Source: the human T2T-CHM13v2.0 reference genome, Homo sapiens. Taken from it: 64,000 bases of DNA. Made by a program: the position numbers and the translations under genes. The notes under the pieces were generated by a model, which saw only the letters and a list, made by a program, of their open reading frames with translations, was not told the origin of the DNA and made no database searches. The stretch lies in NCBI RefSeq assembly GCF_009914755.1, contig NC_060930.1; one strand, written 5' to 3'. This document shows, in pieces, positions 29,008-64,000 of this stretch. Position 1 is the stretch's first letter. The number at the start of each line of letters is the position of its first letter.

Positions 29008-31400
<2,393 letters not shown>

Positions 31401-41233: not shown

Positions 41234-42270
41234 TTAAAAAATAGACTTGTGACAATGGAACATAGTAGCTCTGGCACATAGTAGTTGATTAAAAAAATAG
41301 TAGCTGCGATTTTTGCACTTGCAATGGTTTATGTTATTCAATTAATCAACCAGGATTGAAAACCAGGTTATCAGGTGGGCCAAGGAAAAGGTCAGAAGAG
41401 GTGCCGTCCACAGAGACAAATCTGAGCAGAGGTCTGAATGAGGGGAGGAGGGAGCAGGAGCTGCTTGAGGGGGCTGAGGGGTCTGGAGGTGGGGTGGGGG
41501 AGGGGCGATTTAAGGGTGGAAGAGAGCCACAGGCACTGAGGTCGCCTGCTCCACGGCTCCACCTGGTGGAAATCATCCTTGCAGAGCTCAAGCTACAGAC
41601 AAACCCAAGGAAAAAAGATGTAATACTCAAATATTGCAGCCAATACTTCTGTTATAAATGTTTTTAATGTAGCGGTGTTCTTCTAATTATTACTTGTCTT
41701 TCGGAAGTACACATTTAAATGTTTTTGCACCTTTGTTCTTAGATCATTTTGCAGCATCAACTTTTCTCCCTGGGGTTCCTGAGCCCCCTTTTCTCTAGCC
41801 TCGGAGGCAGAATATTTGTGGAGTCGAATCAGCCCTGCTCAGTAGTCCAGCAAACTCTTTTCTTTTTAAACTAGTATCTCTGCAAGCAAACTCTTCTTCC
41901 ACATCCCACAACCCAACTCCTCATCCCCACAAACACAAAGGCACCTCGCACCACACCTTACTGCTGCTTCTCGGCCCCCAGCGCACACTCCCTTTGCTCT
42001 GCGACATTGCACCTGGGAGCTCCACAGCTGCGCTTCTGCCTTGCCGGCTGGCTTGGGTTCTATTCTGGCGGAGATTTGAAGGCAGTAGGAGGAGGGCAGG
42101 ACTGCCTTTTTCTGGTTTGAGCGCTGTCCCTGCAATGGCGCTTCCCCCTCAGCAGCAGCTGGTTCCAGCCTCCGTTTCCCCTCAGCGCTAACGTCATTGC
42201 TCCCCCTAAACAGATCAGCAGCAGCCGTGTGCCCTTCTCGGAGGTCTGAGCCCCAGCTTCATAGGGCCAT

Positions 42271-43040
<770 letters not shown>

Positions 43041-56697: not shown

Positions 56698-57269
56698 AAA
56701 GTTTTTTATAGTTTTTATAAGTGACCCCACTTCCACCAACCCTCACTTTTGGACGCTGGAATCAGCTTTGGAGATTTGTGTTTGCACCCAGACTTCATTC
56801 CTTACTAGCTTGGCGCCCTGCACTAGAAACCTCCATCTCTATTCTGTAAAAGTGAAGCAATAATGCCAATCTAATTGATGGAATGAGGAATAAGCTAATC
56901 CATTCAGGCAGTTTACTTAGCAATTGTAGGAAATTAAAGCTTTTTCTCTCCTCTTGTCTCCTTTACACTAAAACAGGGTGGACTGGGCACAATTTAACCC
57001 CTCCTGAATAACACGGATGTTTTTGAGATGAGTAACTATTGCTTTTTTTTTTCCACTGAGGTGTGGAAAAGCAGAGAAGCAGAGAAGTAGAGAAGCTTCA
57101 GAAATTGCTTTGTGAAGTTGAATGTGGATGTAAATAGGCAGCAGTTGCTGCCTCCTCCTTTCCCAAGGCTCAGCTCCCATTTCTAGTAGTTTAATTTAGA
57201 ATCCAAGAAACTGTGGACCTGTGCCTTCCCTCTAAATGACAAGGAGTAATAGAAGATGAGGATAACAAG

Positions 57270-59148
57270 GTAAAGGTAGCTTACCTTTGCAATTCCAGCA
57301 CTTTTGAGAAGCACAAAAATTACTTGAGAGCCACGACTTCAAAACCAACCCAGGGAACAGAGTAACACCTGCTCACTCCCAAAAACGTAAAATGTAGCCT
57401 GACAGAGCATCCAGACTTGGTGCGTTCGTCTCACAGGCTTCACTCAGCAGATCTTTGTGGTGAGTGTTACAGCTTTTAAGAATATATATGTGGAGATTTC
57501 TATTCCCCTCTCCCGACTTACTTATTCTTTGTTAAGTTTAATGACCTGCCTGGCCTACAGACATAAACCTACGAACCTTCATAATAAGCACTACAAAACA
57601 AAGAAAATACAAACAAACTGCAACAAAAATCTATTGCAAAAAACAAACACTTCCACACCACACAAAAAGTACTGCAGCTGGTTACCAGTACTGGCTCCCG
57701 CAGCCTGCTATTATACTCTTATCTGGCCCCACCCACATCCTGCTGATAGGTCCATTTTACAGAAAGCTGATTGGTCTGTTTTACAGAGAGCTGATTGGTC
57801 TGTTTTACAGAGAGCTGATTGGTCTGTTTCACAGAGAGCTGATTTGTCCATTTTGACAGGGTGCTGTTTGGTGCATGTACAATCCCTGAGCTAGACACAT
57901 AGTGCTGATTGGTGTATTTGCAATCCTCTAGCTAGACATAAAAGTTCTCCAAGTCCTCCCCAGATTAACTAGACACAGAGCACTGATTGGTGCGCTTACA
58001 AACCTTGAGCTAGACACAGGGTGCTGATTGGTGCATTTACAACCTTTAGCTAGACACAAAAGTTCTCCAAGTTCCCACTAGATGAGCTAAACACAGAGCG
58101 CCGATTGGTGCATTTACAAACCTTGAGCTAGGTACAGGGTGCTGATGGGTGTGTTTACAAACTTGAGCTAGACACCGAGCACTGATTAGTGCATTTATAA
58201 TCGTTTAGCTAGACAGAAAAGTTCTCCAAATCTCCACCAGATTAGCTAGATACAGAGTGCTGATTGGTGCACCCATGAACCCCAAGGTAGACAGAGTGCT
58301 GATTGGCACATATACAATCCTCCGGCTAGACATAAAAGTTCTCCGCGTCCCAACTCTACTGAGGAAGCCAGCTGGCTTCACCTAGTGAATCCACCATCAG
58401 GGCCGTGGGCGGAGCTGCCCTCCAGTCCGGCGGTGTGCGCCCGCACTCCTCAGCCCTTGGGCAGTTAATGAGACCGGGTGCCGGCGGAGGAGGGGGGCGC
58501 CCGTTAGGGGAGGCTTGGGCCGCCTGGGAGTCCACTGCGGGGGACTCGGGCGTGGCGGGCTGCAGGTCCCAAGCCCTGCCCCGCGGGAGGTGGCTGAAGC
58601 CCGGAGAGAATTCGAGCGCGGCGAGAGCGGGCCAGCGGTGCTGGGGGACCCGGCGCCCCCTCTGCAGCTGCTGGCCCGGGTGCTAAACCCCTCACTGCCT
58701 GGGGCCGGCAGCGCTGACGGCCCCTCCCAGTGCGGAACCCGCGCCCGCTGGGAACTCGCACTGGCCCGCGAGCGCCGTGAGCAGCCCCGGTTCCCGCCCA
58801 GCGCCTCTCTCTCCACATCTCGCAAGCCACACCTCCCCGCAAACACAGGGAGCAGGCTCAGGCCTCAGCCAGCCCAGGGAGGGGCTCCTACAGTGCAGCG
58901 GCAGGCTGAAGGGCTCCTCAATCTTGGCCAGAGCGGACACCAAGGCCGAGCAGGTGCTGAGAGCGAGCCAGGGCTGCTAGCACGTTGTCACCTCTCAGCA
59001 TGGTGGCACGCACCTGTGGTCTCAGCTATTTGGAAGGATCACTTGAGCCCAGGAATTAGAGGTTGCAGTGAGCTGGGATGGCACCACTGCACCGCAGCTT
59101 GGGTGTCAGAGCAGCAAGACTCTGTCTCTGAAAAAAGATAAAAATAAA
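57270..59148 (+). mobile_element. AluJ split by LTR12 (left arm ~57270-57405, right arm 58998-59148)
   Basis: Left arm ends ...TGTAGCCTGAC; right arm resumes GCATGGTGGCACGCACCTGT. Confidence 0.75.
57406..58997 (-). mobile_element. LTR12 (ERV9) solo LTR, copy 1
   Basis: Minus strand begins TGAGAGGTGACAACGTGCT; GC-rich U3; about 9 CCAAT (ATTGG) boxes in GCTAGACAC repeats. Confidence 0.93.
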
Positions 59149-61439: not shown

Positions 61440-62462
<1,023 letters not shown>

Positions 62463-62557
62463 ACAACCACACACACACACAGAAAAGACACACTCCAGGG
62501 ACAGGGGCTCAGACTTTCCAAAGTCTTCGCAAACTTATGCTTTTCCAGGGCTGCTGG

Positions 62558-64000
62558 TGTGTCCAGAATTGGTCAGTGCCCGGTTTCACCGACTTCAAAA
62601 ATGAAACCATGGGCCCTTAACAGTGAGTATTAAATTTCTTATAGGCGGCATGTCTGGAGCTTGCTCCTTCTAATGTTCCAATGTGTTCAGTTTTTTTCCT
62701 TTTGGTGGATTATGTAGTCTTCCTTGCTCAGAAGTGAGGCTACTAACTTTCACAGTGAATGTTATAGCTCGTAAAACTGGCACGTCTGGAGTTATGTCTC
62801 AGTGAATTTGTGGGCTCACTGGCTTCAGAAGTGAAGCCACAGACCTTCATAATGAGTGCTACAATTCACAAAAGCAGCACAGACCTAAAGACCAAGCAGA
62901 AACAAGACGAGGGAGGAGGAGGAAGAGAAAAAGCTTCCACACAGCAAAAGTAGGTTACAGCTTATTACTACTGGAAGCTCAAGGCAGCCTGCTTTTATTC
63001 TCTCATCTGGCCCCACCCACATCCTGCTGATTGGTCCATTTTACAGAGAGCTGACTGGTCTGTTTTGACAGGGTGCTGATTGGTGCGTTTACAATCCCTG
63101 AGCTAGACACAAAAATTCTCCATGTCCCCGCTAGATTACCTAGATACAGAGTGTTGACTGATGTATTTACAAATCGTGAGCTAGTCACAGAGTGCCGATT
63201 GGTGTATTCACAATCCCTTAGCTAGACATAAAGATTCTCCAAGTCCCCAACAGATTAACTAGATACAGAGTGCCGATTGGTGCATTCACAAACCCTGAGC
63301 TAGACACAGGGTGCTGATTGGTGTGTTTACAAACCTTGAGCTAGAGACAGTGCTGATTGGTGTATTTACAATCCCTTAGCTAGACATAAAGGTACTCCAT
63401 AGTCCCACACCAGACTCAGGACCCAAGCTGGCTTCACCCAGTGGATCCTGCACTAGGGCCGCAAGCGGAGCTGCCTGCTGGTCCCGCGCTGTGCGCCTGC
63501 ACTTCTGCACTCCTCAGCCCTTGGGCAGTCGTATGGGATCTGGGCGCTCTGGAGCACGGAGTGGCGCTCGTCGGGGAGGCTTGGGCTGTTGGGGAGGCTT
63601 AGGCTTGGCGGGCTGCAAGTCCGGAGCCCTGCCCCGCGGGGAGGCAGCTAAGGCCCGGCGAGAAATACGAGTACAGCAGCTCCTGGTCTAGGTGCTAAGC
63701 CCCTCACTGCCCCGGACTTGCGAGCCGGCGGCTGCTCCGAGTGCGGAGCCCGCTGAGCCCACAACCCGCCCGGAACTCGCGCTGGCCCGCAAGCGCTGCA
63801 CGCAGCCCCGGTTCCCGCCCGGCTTGTCTCTCCACACCTCCCCGCAAGTTGAGGGAGCCGGCTCCGGCCTTGGCTAGCCCAGTAAGGGGCTCCCACAGTG
63901 CAGTGGTGGGCTGAAGTGCTTCTCAAGCGCTGCCAGAGTGGGCGCCCAGGCCCAGGAGGCGCTGAGAGCGAGCCAGGGCTGAGGGCTGTCAGCACGCTGT
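62558..64000 (-). mobile_element. LTR12 (ERV9) solo LTR, copy 2 (5' end clipped by the window edge)
   Basis: TGTGTCCAGAATTGG terminus at 62558; about 6 CCAAT boxes; GC-rich U3 running to the window end. Confidence 0.93.

What the first reader, a model, noticed from the sequence alone, without database searches (positions are those of the whole stretch)
57680..58997. LTR12 copy 1 looks like an upgraded spermatocyte promoter: MYB sites and a TATA-like box absent from copy 2
Seen: GGCAGTTA (58460-58467) and CCGTTA (58501-58506) match MYB YAACNG; copy 2 has GGCAGTCG and TCGTCG at those positions. The TATA-like AATAAAA of copy 2 (62999-62993) is TATAATA in copy 1 (57715-57709). There are about 9 CCAAT boxes and CpGs are retained at 58400-58990. 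Established: NF-Y drives LTR12, LTR12s are testis-active, and A-MYB (MYBL1) drives pachytene genes and piRNA precursors. Inference: a tandem LTR12 pair driving a leftward meiotic lncRNA or pachytene piRNA precursor.
Basis: partly seen in the sequence, partly recalled or inferred. Interest (0 to 1): 0.7.

Follow-up and report, generated by a model that had tools for sequence, protein, structure and literature searches.

The report
Old retroviral LTR12 drives LINC02522
Two separate leftover ends (solo LTRs) of the ancient ERV9 retrovirus sit here, and one of them is the ordinary, already annotated promoter and first exon of the non-coding gene LINC02522; the supposed MYB upgrade is no more than chance.

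Summary

**The elements.** Both are real ERV9 LTR12 solo LTRs on the minus strand:
- Copy 1 is at about 57411-58997. It split an old Alu.
- Copy 2 is at 62558-64009 and has a 4-bp target duplication, CTGG.
- They are independent insertions, about 28% apart. They are not a tandem pair and not the two ends of one provirus.
- Both carry the roughly 600-nt 5' extension that print assigns to LTR12C/D/E. Copy 2 clusters with labelled LTR12C. Copy 1 sits in an older, non-C cluster, and I could not resolve D from E.
- Age is roughly 15-30 My. Divergence overstates it here.

**The promoter.** All 7 RefSeq LINC02522 transcripts start at 57683, 32 nt after the TATA-like box. This is the usual LTR12 start point.

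**The "upgrade".**
- The two MYB-like hexamers lie 779-823 nt upstream and are at or below chance density.
- One of them recurs in 9 of 72 relatives through CpG decay.
- Nine CCAAT boxes is the family median.
- TATAATA is private to copy 1 (0 of 72 relatives), and its effect is untested.
- Copy 2 is the degraded copy.
- CpG retention is real but equal in both copies.

**New finding.** Exon 1 has lost about half of its sense-strand cytosines to T, including in the host Alu. This happened in place. It suggests long germline transcription, but other LTR12 promoters lack the pattern.

Nothing here supports a pachytene piRNA precursor.

The parts
57411..58997 (-). LTR12 copy 1: solo LTR of ERV9/HERV9, 5'-extended kind, non-C cluster (D/E-like), 1587 nt
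   Evidence: BLAST to 16 of 16 labelled LTR12 loci. The 5' end shares the same terminal letters as copy 2. Homology to other copies stops at 57410 in 17 HSPs and at 57399 in 2 of 102 HSPs. It falls outside the labelled LTR12C cluster.
58358..58997 (-). GC-rich 5' extension of copy 1 (first 640 nt in sense)
   Evidence: Probe hits: 58 of 58 genome relatives, 14 of 14 labelled LTR12C, only 202 nt of the labelled LTR12D, and nothing in the plain LTR12 at ADH1C. CpG o/e 0.62, rank 6 of 74.
58462..58467 (-). MYB-like hexamer 1 (TAACTG in sense), 779-784 nt upstream of the TSS
   Evidence: The two changed columns are CG in 35, CA in 13 and TG in 7 of 72 relatives. 9 of 72 relatives also match YAACNG at this site.
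58501..58506 (-). MYB-like hexamer 2 (TAACGG in sense), 818-823 nt upstream of the TSS
   Evidence: Private to copy 1 (0 of 72 relatives). The alignment with copy 2 shows a one-base length difference at this spot.
57742..58271 (-). U3 tandem repeats bearing the CCAAT (NF-Y) boxes: 24-nt unit x5.4 at 57742-57872, then 41-nt and longer periods
   Evidence: 9 CCAAT boxes on the minus strand, equal to the median of 71 relatives.
57709..57715 (-). TATA-like box, TATAATA in sense. Private variant of the family's AATAAAA.
   Evidence: AATAAAA in 62 of 72 recovered relatives, TATAATA in 0 of 72. It lies 32 nt upstream of the RefSeq start.
57684..57695 (-). Initiator inverted repeat (GCCAGTACTGGT in sense). 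The TSS at 57683 follows directly.
   Evidence: 1 mismatch to GCCANNNNTGGC, the motif printed in PMC11853044 section 5. 47 of 71 relatives have 0 or 1 mismatch.
57285..57683 (-). LINC02522 exon 1 = R/U5 of copy 1 (57411-57683) plus 126 nt of host Alu. The splice donor lies in the Alu.
   Evidence: 7 of 7 transcripts. (the intron starts with GT on the minus strand). Strong sense-strand C>T loss.
57255..57410 (+). Left (transcribed) half of the Alu that copy 1 split
   Evidence: Net G>A on the + strand is 10.1 per 100 nt. S = +10.0, z = 5.4.
58998..59135 (+). Right (upstream, untranscribed) half of the same Alu
   Evidence: 41 comparator Alus. Balanced changes, S = -2.2.
57407..57410 (.). Candidate target-site duplication GCAT, left copy. 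The right copy is at 58998-59001.
   Evidence: The two Alu halves overlap by alignment columns 195-202. The exact length is uncertain, and the last few bases of the LTR's 3' end are not recognisable.
62558..64000 (-). LTR12 copy 2: solo LTR of LTR12C type. Runs 9 nt past the window end (to 64009), 1452 nt in all.
   Evidence: Nests among 14 labelled LTR12C copies (bootstrap 300 of 300). No RefSeq transcript starts in it.
62554..62557 (.). Target-site duplication CTGG of copy 2. The partner lies just outside the window at 64010-64013.
62993..62999 (-). TATA-like box of copy 2, the family's usual AATAAAA
   Evidence: The initiator downstream is degraded: 5 mismatches in the 12-mer, and only 1 of 71 relatives is worse.

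Best explanation
Copy 1 is a solo LTR of the endogenous retrovirus ERV9 (HERV9; LTR12 group, the 5'-extended kind). It inserted into an Alu and now serves as the promoter and first exon of the lncRNA gene LINC02522.

It works through the ordinary LTR12 layout:
- an array of CCAAT boxes in the U3 tandem repeats, which print identifies as NF-Y sites;
- a TATA-like box at -32;
- the family's initiator inverted repeat at the U3/R border.

The transcript runs through R/U5 into the flanking Alu, where a donor site splices it to downstream exons.

The two MYB-like hexamers are by-products of sequence decay, about 800 nt upstream, and nothing in the evidence requires them. Copy 2 is an unrelated, later-type (LTR12C) solo LTR whose core promoter has decayed.

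Shown: the anatomy, the TSS position and the family. Inferred: NF-Y dependence (from print) and long germline activity (from mutational footprints).
For: **Family**
- BLAST hits to 16 of 16 labelled LTR12 loci.
- 41-nt U3 repeats.
- 5' extension present.
- HERV9 is paired with LTR12 to LTR12F in print (PMC5753468, passages).

**Solo and independent**
- CTGG duplication around copy 2.
- Copy 1 lies between two halves of one Alu.
- The DNA between the copies matches only Alu-type repeats among the 40 candidates scored.

**Promoter**
- 7 of 7 RefSeq transcripts start at 57683.
- The rule "TATA-like box + 32 nt" lands within 3 nt of the RefSeq 5' end at the labelled LTR12C promoters of ZFP90, PGPEP1L, IRGM and TP63.
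- CCAAT count is 9, the median of 71 relatives.
- The initiator repeat has 1 mismatch.

**Print**
- NF-Y binds the CCAAT repeats, and AATAAAA sits about 30 nt before the TSS (PMC11853044, sections 3-5 read).
- LTR12C/D/E are open, hypomethylated and expressed in human spermatogonial stem cells, with the NFYA/B motif (PMC5832720, passages).
- LTR12C/D/E-started transcripts are enriched in testis (PMC12587700, passages).

**Germline footprints**
- CpG o/e of the 5' extension is 0.62, rank 6 of 74 and above all 29 nearest relatives.
- Sense-strand C>T loss begins at the TSS and reaches into host DNA.
Against: - No expression, methylation or binding data could be read here. Tissue and cell stage are therefore inferred.
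- The only 2 papers that name LINC02522 are tumour-signature studies, seen as search listings only.
- The footprint is not a general mark of LTR12 promoters. Median net C>T is -1.0 for the 9 relatives with an annotated 5' end and -1.1 for the 62 without (p = 0.53). The TP63 LTR12C, a male-germline promoter in print, scores -1.8.
- CpG retention and the footprint correlate only weakly among relatives (rho 0.22, p = 0.07, n = 69).
- Copy 1 has 3 mismatches in the printed 12-nt TSS motif, and its TATA-like box differs from the family's.
- The subfamily name (D or E) is unresolved. The one labelled LTR12D is no closer to copy 1's cluster than to LTR12C.
Confidence: 0.72

Rival explanations
1. Copy 1 gained two A-MYB (MYBL1) sites and a better TATA box. 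It is a pachytene-spermatocyte promoter for a meiotic lncRNA or a pachytene piRNA precursor.
For: - Two YAACNG matches lie in the LTR's sense orientation, 39 nt apart. Hexamer 2 and the TATAATA box are private to copy 1 (0 of 72 each).
- Only 8 of 72 relatives have 2 or more YAACNG in the 5' extension.
- In mouse, an ERV family with CCAAT and A-MYB sites drives meiotic genes (Sakashita et al., as described in PMC12065363, passage).
- Mutational footprints fit some form of germline activity.
Against: - Motif density is at or below background: 2 seen against about 3.1 expected from the window's own 2.0 per kb.
- The sites lie 779-823 nt upstream, and there are 0 YAACNG within TSS +/-500 nt. The print criterion for A-MYB targets is a peak within 500 bp of the TSS (PMC7782496, methods passage).
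- Site 1 arises repeatedly by CpG decay (9 of 72 relatives).
- By the recalled 8-nt TATA consensus, both boxes differ at one position. This rests on recall, not on a call.
- The gene has a 399-nt first exon and all 7 transcripts are spliced. Long first exons or intronless units mark about half of pachytene clusters (PMC7782496).
- No paper holds both LTR12 and MYBL1. Only one holds LTR12 and A-MYB, and there the A-MYB passage concerns the mouse RLTR10B family.
- Lists of the 89 human pachytene loci are in supplements that I could not open.
Confidence: 0.07
2. The LTR is normally silent in the germline, and LINC02522 is a product of derepressed LTR12 promoters in tumours or stressed somatic cells. 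On this view the C>T erosion of exon 1 comes from one or a few clustered single-strand deamination events, for example during break repair, and not from transcription.
For: - The only papers naming LINC02522 are tumour-expression signatures (listings).
- LTR12 promoters are widely derepressed in tumours and by HDAC/DNMT inhibitors (PMC11853044, passages).
- The footprint is absent from other LTR12 promoters, including TP63's. Its size is about half of all sense-strand C in roughly 430 nt, which is far beyond the usual transcription asymmetry.
Against: - The erosion starts at the TSS, is on the non-template strand and fades with distance. S is +10.0 at 0-430 nt, +3.2 at about 1-1.3 kb and -2.0 at about 2.5 kb.
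- It shows no TC, CC or CpG neighbour preference, as enzyme-driven clusters would.
- Copy 2 and the Alu just downstream of it show a weaker version of the same pattern.
- CpG retention in both copies fits low germline methylation.
Confidence: 0.15
3. The two LTRs are the 5' and 3' ends of one degraded provirus, or a tandem duplication of a single LTR.
For: They have the same orientation and lie 3.56 kb apart.
Against: - Each has its own flanks. CTGG sits on both sides of copy 2, and two halves of one Alu sit on either side of copy 1.
- K2P between the copies is 0.284, larger than either copy's distance to its own relatives.
- They fall in different clusters.
- The DNA between them gave only Alu-type matches (40 of 27,435 candidates scored).
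Confidence: 0.01

Closest known systems
LTR12C-type promoters of host genes and lncRNAs (ZFP90, PGPEP1L, IRGM, TP63/GTAp63, SCHLAP1, LINC01419; Table 1 of PMC11853044)
   Same: - Solo ERV9 LTR in sense orientation supplies the TSS.
- CCAAT/NF-Y repeat array, A/T-rich box about 30 nt upstream and an initiator inverted repeat.
- The annotated 5' end falls at the same distance from the box.
- R/U5 forms the start of exon 1.
   Different: - Copy 1 is not of the LTR12C cluster.
- Its box reads TATAATA instead of AATAAAA (0 of 72).
- It is much more diverged: terminal branch rank 3-4 of 74.
- Its exon 1 shows an extreme sense-strand C>T loss that these labelled promoters lack.
LTR12D / LTR12E (the other 5'-extended LTR12 subfamilies; PMC8767690: n = 377 and 104)
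   Same: - Has the ~600-nt 5' extension.
- Lies outside the labelled LTR12C cluster and in a more diverged one: within-cluster median K2P 0.225 against 0.154.
   Different: The single labelled LTR12D (DHRS2) lacks most of the extension and is no closer to copy 1's cluster than to LTR12C (0.370 against 0.349). No labelled LTR12E was available. The name is therefore open.
Mouse RLTR10B-type ERV enhancers bound by A-MYB in meiosis (Sakashita et al., via PMC12065363)
   Same: An ERV LTR with CCAAT boxes that is active in the male germline.
   Different: - A different virus class and host.
- Here the MYB-like hexamers are at chance density and far from the TSS.
- Human LTR12C/D/E activity in print is in spermatogonial stem cells and oocytes with NF-Y (PMC5832720).
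Transcription-associated strand asymmetry at the 5' ends of human genes (Polak and Arndt 2008; recalled, the paper is not held; general statement in PMC10030826)
   Same: Excess C>T on the non-template strand, starting at the TSS and fading within about 1-2 kb.
   Different: The size here is far larger. About half of the sense-strand cytosines are lost in roughly 430 nt. It is seen at one LTR promoter and not at most of its relatives.

Membership tests
ERV9 / LTR12 (LTR of HERV9, ERV1 superfamily) | Sequence homology to loci that print labels as LTR12 | tested here: met
   Both copies hit 16 of 16 labelled loci. There were about 4002 and 3564 first-look candidates in the genome.
ERV9 / LTR12 (LTR of HERV9, ERV1 superfamily) | U3 tandem repeats of about 41 nt (5-17 units) carrying CCAAT boxes (PMC11853044) | tested here: met
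   Period-41 arrays in both copies. 9 and 6 CCAAT boxes in U3.
ERV9 / LTR12 (LTR of HERV9, ERV1 superfamily) | A/T-rich box about 30 nt before the TSS, and the GCCANNNNTGGC initiator repeat at the U3/R border | tested here: met
   Copy 1: variant box TATAATA at -32 and 1 mismatch in the repeat. Copy 2: AATAAAA, but 3 mismatches in the repeat.
ERV9 / LTR12 (LTR of HERV9, ERV1 superfamily) | Short target-site duplication flanking the LTR (solo LTR after recombination) | tested here: met
   Copy 2: CTGG on both sides. Copy 1: candidate GCAT, with the Alu halves overlapping by 4-8 positions. The exact length is uncertain.
5'-extended LTR12 (LTR12C/D/E) | About 600-nt GC-rich 5' extension that plain LTR12 lacks (PMC8767690) | tested here: met
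   The probe from either copy hits 14 of 14 labelled LTR12C and 58 of 58 genome relatives, and gives no hit in the plain LTR12 at ADH1C.
LTR12C | Clusters with loci labelled LTR12C | tested here: not met
   For copy 1: it sits in a separate cluster with none of the 14 labelled copies, and is closer to its own hits in 298 of 300 resamples (partly circular). Copy 2 meets this test (300 of 300).
LTR12D | Closer to a labelled LTR12D than to LTR12C | tested here: inconclusive
   Only one labelled copy (DHRS2) was available and it lacks most of the extension. Its median K2P is 0.370 to copy 1's cluster and 0.349 to LTR12C.
LTR12E | Match to the LTR12E reference (Repbase/Dfam) | not testable with these tools
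   No labelled LTR12E locus with a usable position was found in print, and no repeat library is on hand.
A-MYB-driven pachytene gene or piRNA cluster | A-MYB bound within 500 bp of the TSS (PMC7782496 methods) | not testable with these tools
   There are no binding data. At motif level there are 0 YAACNG within 57183-58183, and the nearest lie at +536 and -779.
A-MYB-driven pachytene gene or piRNA cluster | Long first exon or a long intronless unit (about half of clusters; PMC7782496) | tested here: not met
   The first exon is 399 nt and 7 of 7 transcripts are spliced. This feature is not obligatory for the class.
A-MYB-driven pachytene gene or piRNA cluster | Abundant 26-31-nt piRNAs from the transcript strand | not testable with these tools
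   No small-RNA data. The lists of human loci are in closed supplements.
Provirus (paired LTRs) | One shared target duplication outside both LTRs, and viral inner sequence between them | tested here: not met
   Each LTR has its own flanks. Only Alu-type matches were found between them. No frames were listed or translated.

The most novel reading that the evidence does not exclude
Exon 1 of LINC02522 carries one of the strongest natural strand-specific mutational footprints at a human promoter. About half of the non-template-strand cytosines have changed to T over roughly 430 nt from the TSS, with no neighbour preference, and the change reaches into host Alu DNA. A weaker echo appears at copy 2.

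This would record millions of years of R-loop-prone germline transcription from an LTR. It would also mean that long-term germline promoter use by individual repeats can be read from sequence alone.
Probability: 0.35. Interest if true: 0.55.

Novelty: new member of a known kind. Interest (0 to 1): 0.3.

Why it matters
The finding is mostly ordinary. It adds one more lncRNA whose promoter and first exon are a solo ERV9 LTR, which is a well-described class, and the gene is already in RefSeq. Three points are still useful.

1. **Private motifs can be checked against relatives.** Once copies elsewhere in the genome are counted, both MYB sites turn out to be decay products at chance density, and the copy that looks "weaker" is simply the decayed one.
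2. **Divergence dating fails here.** Both copies look two to three times older than their kind allows, while keeping more CpG than their relatives.
3. **The cytosine loss deserves a genome-wide look.** If the extreme sense-strand loss across exon 1 reflects germline R-loops or transcription, it would give a sequence-only readout of long-term promoter use by repeats.

Tried and rejected
1. **Provirus or tandem duplication.** Rejected from the flanks and target duplications, the distance between the copies and the intervening DNA.
2. **CCAAT expansion as an upgrade.** I first took the 24-nt unit (5.4 copies against 2.4) for an expansion in copy 1. One search shows copy 1 is at the family median (9 boxes, 4 of them in the proximal 200 nt) and copy 2 is depleted.
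3. **Absolute dating from non-CpG terminal branches.** This gave 30-74 My, which is beyond what print allows for 5'-extended LTR12. I treat it as an overestimate. Only 39-40 of about 4000 candidates were scored, so unsampled closer relatives are also possible.
4. **Naming copy 1 D or E through the labelled DHRS2 LTR12D.** Uninformative.
5. **APOBEC-type editing as the cause of the C>T loss.** Rejected for three reasons. The change is on the wrong strand for editing of viral cDNA. It extends into host Alu. It shows no TC or CC preference.
6. **Footprint as a general mark of annotated LTR12 promoters.** Not supported (9 against 62 relatives, p = 0.53).
7. **GC/AT skew profile.** Confounded by the repeats' own composition, so not used.
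8. **Rfam scan of the window.** Nothing at the LTRs.
9. **Bootstrap of cluster membership.** Partly circular for copy 1, because its comparison set was chosen as its own best hits.
Full report
**1. The observation**

All quoted letters are at the quoted places.
- GGCAGTTA is at 58460-58467 and CCGTTA at 58501-58506.
- Copy 2 reads GGCAGTCG (63524-63531) and TCGTCG (63568-63573) at the matching places.
- On the minus strand, copy 1 reads TATAATA at 57715-57709 and copy 2 reads AATAAAA at 62999-62993.
- Copy 1 has exactly 9 CCAAT boxes, all on the minus strand.
- 58400-58997 holds 50 CpG (o/e 0.64).

Three corrections are needed.
- Both elements lie on the minus strand, and copy 1 does not begin at 57680. 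That point is the transcription start, and R/U5 continues to about 57411.
- Copy 2 also has YAACNG matches: 3, against 2 in copy 1.
- The CpG o/e of copy 2's matching part is also 0.64.

**2. What the elements are**

*Ends and flanks.*
- In sense, both copies begin with the same terminal letters.
- Copy 2 spans 62558-64009, which is 9 nt past the window (read from L001). CTGG flanks it on both sides, so it is a solo LTR.
- Copy 1 is flanked on the right by the 3' part of an Alu (58998-59135) and on the left by the 5' part of the same Alu (57255-57410).
- In an alignment with 44 other Alu pieces of the window, the two halves abut and overlap by alignment columns 195-202. GCAT (57407-57410 and 58998-59001) is the best exact candidate for the duplication.
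- The last few bases of copy 1's 3' end cannot be recognised. Homology to other copies stops at 57410 in 17 of 102 HSPs and at 57399 in 2.

*Independence.*
- The 3.4 kb between the copies gave only Alu-type matches elsewhere in the genome (only 40 of 27,435 candidates were scored).
- The copies align at 76% mean column identity and K2P 0.284 in the 5' extension.
- They are therefore two independent solo LTRs. They are neither a tandem duplication nor the two ends of one provirus.
- I listed no reading frames and translated nothing.

**3. Family**

- Both copies hit all 16 loci that Table 1 of PMC11853044 labels as LTR12, LTR12C or LTR12D.
- Both have the 41-nt U3 repeats with CCAAT.
- Print pairs LTR12 to LTR12F with the inner sequence HERV9, in the ERV1 superfamily (PMC5753468, passage).
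- PMC8767690 (passages) states that only LTR12C (n = 2453), D (377) and E (104) carry a roughly 600-nt 5' extension. A probe of that part from either copy hits 14 of 14 labelled LTR12C and 58 of 58 genome relatives. It hits only 202 nt of the labelled LTR12D and nothing in the plain LTR12 at ADH1C. Both copies are therefore of the 5'-extended kind.
- In a neighbour-joining tree of that part (74 sequences), copy 2 nests among the 14 labelled LTR12C copies. Copy 1 sits with its own 29 best hits in a separate, more diverged cluster that holds no labelled LTR12C.
- Column resampling agrees: 298 of 300 for copy 1 and 300 of 300 for copy 2. For copy 1 this is partly circular, because its comparison set was chosen as its best hits.
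- The one labelled LTR12D is no closer to copy 1's cluster than to LTR12C (0.370 against 0.349).
- My naming is therefore copy 2 = LTR12C type and copy 1 = non-C, D/E-like. A repeat library is needed for the last letter.

**4. Age**

*What print says.*
- ERV9 entered more than 30 My ago.
- The 5'-extended forms are almost only in hominoids, at about 20 My (PMC8767690).
- Spread ended about 6 My ago (PMC11853044, section 4).

*What I measured in the 5' extension.*

| Comparison (median K2P) | All columns | 435 non-CpG columns |
|---|---|---|
| Among labelled LTR12C | 0.154 | 0.073 |
| Copy 2 to labelled LTR12C | 0.197 | 0.113 |
| Copy 1 to its own cluster | 0.254 | 0.136 |

- Non-CpG terminal branches are 0.074 for copy 1 and 0.065 for copy 2, against a median of 0.025 for labelled LTR12C. 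These rank 4 and 5 of 74.
- Taken at face value with 1.0-2.2e-9 per site per year, this gives 30-74 My, which is older than print allows for this kind.
- Yet both copies keep more CpG than their relatives: o/e 0.62, ranks 6 and 7 of 74. Copy 1 is above all 29 of its nearest relatives.
- High non-CpG change together with high CpG retention points to a locally unusual mutation regime and not to great age. A paper seen only as a search listing reports a germline mutation hotspot at TSSs (PMC12658150).
- Closer relatives may also have been missed, since 39 of 4002 and 40 of 3564 candidates were scored.
- My estimate is that both copies are early members of their kind, roughly 15-30 My old, with copy 1's lineage the older. 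Orthologous primate loci would settle this.

**5. What copy 1 does**

- All 7 RefSeq LINC02522 transcripts begin at 57683 on the minus strand. This is 32 nt after the first base of the TATA-like box and directly after GCCAGTACTGGT, which has 1 mismatch to the initiator repeat GCCANNNNTGGC printed in PMC11853044.
- The same rule (box + 32 nt) lands within 3 nt of the RefSeq 5' end at the labelled LTR12C promoters of ZFP90, PGPEP1L, IRGM and TP63.
- Exon 1 (57285-57683) is R/U5 plus 126 nt of the Alu. A GT donor on the Alu's antisense strand ends it.
It starts at the canonical LTR12 start point.

**6. Is copy 1 "upgraded"?**

*MYB-like hexamers.*
- The window holds 127 YAACNG in 64 kb. Dinucleotide shuffles give 211 +/- 15, so the motif is under-represented.
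- At that density, 3.1 are expected in copy 1 and 2 are seen.
- None lies between 57183 and 58183.
- In the 5' extension, copy 1 has 2. Of the 72 other copies, 40 have 0, 24 have 1, 7 have 2 and 1 has 3.
- At site 1, the two columns that differ from copy 2 are CG in 35, CA in 13 and TG in 7 of the 72 others. Nine of the 72 also match YAACNG there. It is a recurrent product of CpG decay.
- Site 2 is private to copy 1 (0 of 72).

*CCAAT boxes.*
- Nine is the median of 71 relatives (range 1-13).
- Within 200 nt of the box, copy 1 has 4, which is also the median. Copy 2 has 2.

*Initiator.* Copy 2 has 5 mismatches in the 12-mer, and only 1 of 71 relatives is worse.

*TATA-like box.*
- AATAAAA occurs in 62 of 72 recovered relatives and TATAATA in 0. 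The variant is real and private.
- By the 8-nt TATA consensus as I recall it, each version misses one position, so I cannot call it stronger.

In short, copy 1 is a typical LTR12 core promoter with one private box variant, and copy 2 is a decayed one.

**7. A footprint I did not expect**

*In the LTR.*
- In the first 240 nt after the TSS, copy 1's sense strand has C 13.3% (lowest of 73 copies) and T 36.7% (highest). G and A are ordinary.
- In aligned comparisons over 150 nt, copy 1 has T where a relative has C at 23.7 positions on average, and the reverse at 1.9. The net figure ranks 1 of 73. G/A exchanges are balanced at 3.7 against 5.9.
- Nothing of the kind appears in the 5' extension (net -6.2 and -4.1).

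*In the host Alu.*
- The Alu half downstream of the TSS shows the same bias: net G>A on the + strand of 10.1 per 100 nt, S = +10.0, z = 5.4 against 44 other Alu pieces whose S ranges from -2.7 to +3.9.
- The half upstream of the LTR does not (S = -2.2).
- The change therefore happened in place, after insertion. It is not editing of viral cDNA.

*Context and spread.*
- It shows no neighbour preference. The 5' base shares are A .24, C .23, G .24 and T .29, against a background of .22.22.28 and .29. The 3' G share is .07 against .07.
- It fades with distance: S is +3.2 in the Alu at about 1-1.3 kb and -2.0 at about 2.5 kb.
- Copy 2 shows a weaker version: net +8.1 (rank 3 of 73), with S = +3.5 in the Alu just downstream of it.

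*Reading.*
- The pattern fits deamination of the single-stranded non-template strand during transcription in the germline. The general statement is in PMC10030826. The 5'-end effect of Polak and Arndt 2008 is recalled, because that paper is not held.

*Evidence against a simple reading.*
- Among 71 relatives, the 9 with an annotated 5' end within 150 nt of the predicted start have a median net value of -1.0, against -1.1 for the other 62 (p = 0.53).
- The TP63 LTR12C, which print describes as a male-germline promoter, has -1.8.
- The link with CpG retention is weak (rho 0.22, p = 0.07, n = 69).
- The size of the effect at copy 1 therefore remains unexplained. Long-lived R-loops are my best guess.

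**8.

- No paper in the library holds both LTR12 and MYBL1. One holds LTR12 and A-MYB, and there A-MYB is mentioned for the mouse RLTR10B family (PMC12065363, passage).
- Print places human LTR12C/D/E activity in spermatogonial stem cells and oocytes, with open, hypomethylated chromatin and the NFYA/B motif (PMC5832720, passages). It also finds LTR12C/D/E-started transcripts enriched in testis (PMC12587700, passages).
- A subset of LTR12C/D copies is lowly methylated from primordial germ cells through to sperm (PMC8967385, passages).
- A-MYB targets are defined in print by a peak within 500 bp of the TSS, and about half of pachytene piRNA clusters are long intronless units or have very long first exons (PMC7782496, passages). 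LINC02522 has a 399-nt first exon and only spliced forms.
- LINC02522 itself appears in 2 papers, both tumour-signature studies seen as listings only.
- Lists of human pachytene loci and per-locus tables are in supplements that I could not open.

**9. Verdict**

- This is a real, old ERV9 remnant. It consists of two independent solo LTRs of the 5'-extended LTR12 kind.
- One of them is the ordinary promoter of an annotated lncRNA.
- The MYB and piRNA story is not supported.
- A germline-active promoter remains plausible on indirect sequence grounds.
- The strand-specific cytosine loss over exon 1 is the one feature worth following up.

Noticed in passing
window 57255-57683 (minus strand); also 62177-62557: Extreme sense-strand C>T loss over LINC02522 exon 1. 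It reaches into the host Alu (S = +10.0 per 100 nt against -2.7 to +3.9 for 44 other Alu pieces). A weaker version lies downstream of copy 2. Other LTR12 promoters, including TP63's, lack it.
   Followed up: yes
L055 (chr17:68956746-68958745), predicted TSS chr17:68958530 +: Another LTR12 copy with a strong sense-strand C>T excess after its predicted start (net +13.1, second of 73). No RefSeq gene 5' end lies within 150 nt.
   Followed up: partly
whole window: YAACNG is markedly under-represented: 127 matches against 211 +/- 15 in dinucleotide-preserving shuffles. Unexplained.
   Followed up: no
L045 (chr6:15630462 -) and L034 (chr3:42788647 +): Two unlabelled LTR12 relatives whose predicted start coincides with the RefSeq 5' end of a lncRNA, LOC102724520 and CCDC13-AS2. 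These are further LTR12-driven lncRNAs.
   Followed up: no
L066 1352-2441 (LINC01194 locus, chr5:12.51 Mb): Two 5'-extension pieces of LTR12C lie head to tail (1352-1910 and 1913/1921-2441). This is a partial internal duplication of that LTR.
   Followed up: no
chr6:10483713-10485267 (128 kb right of the window, inside GCNT2): A further LTR12 copy on the minus strand, 72% identical to copy 2.
   Followed up: no
window 57280-57290: The splice donor of LINC02522 exon 1 lies on the antisense strand of the Alu that the LTR split.
   Followed up: partly
window 42074-42580: RefSeq lists an "H3K4me1 hESC enhancer" inside the last exon of LINC02522.
   Followed up: no
window 29674-29821: The only Rfam match in the window reaching a gathering score is an Alu read as Metazoa_SRP.
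   Followed up: no
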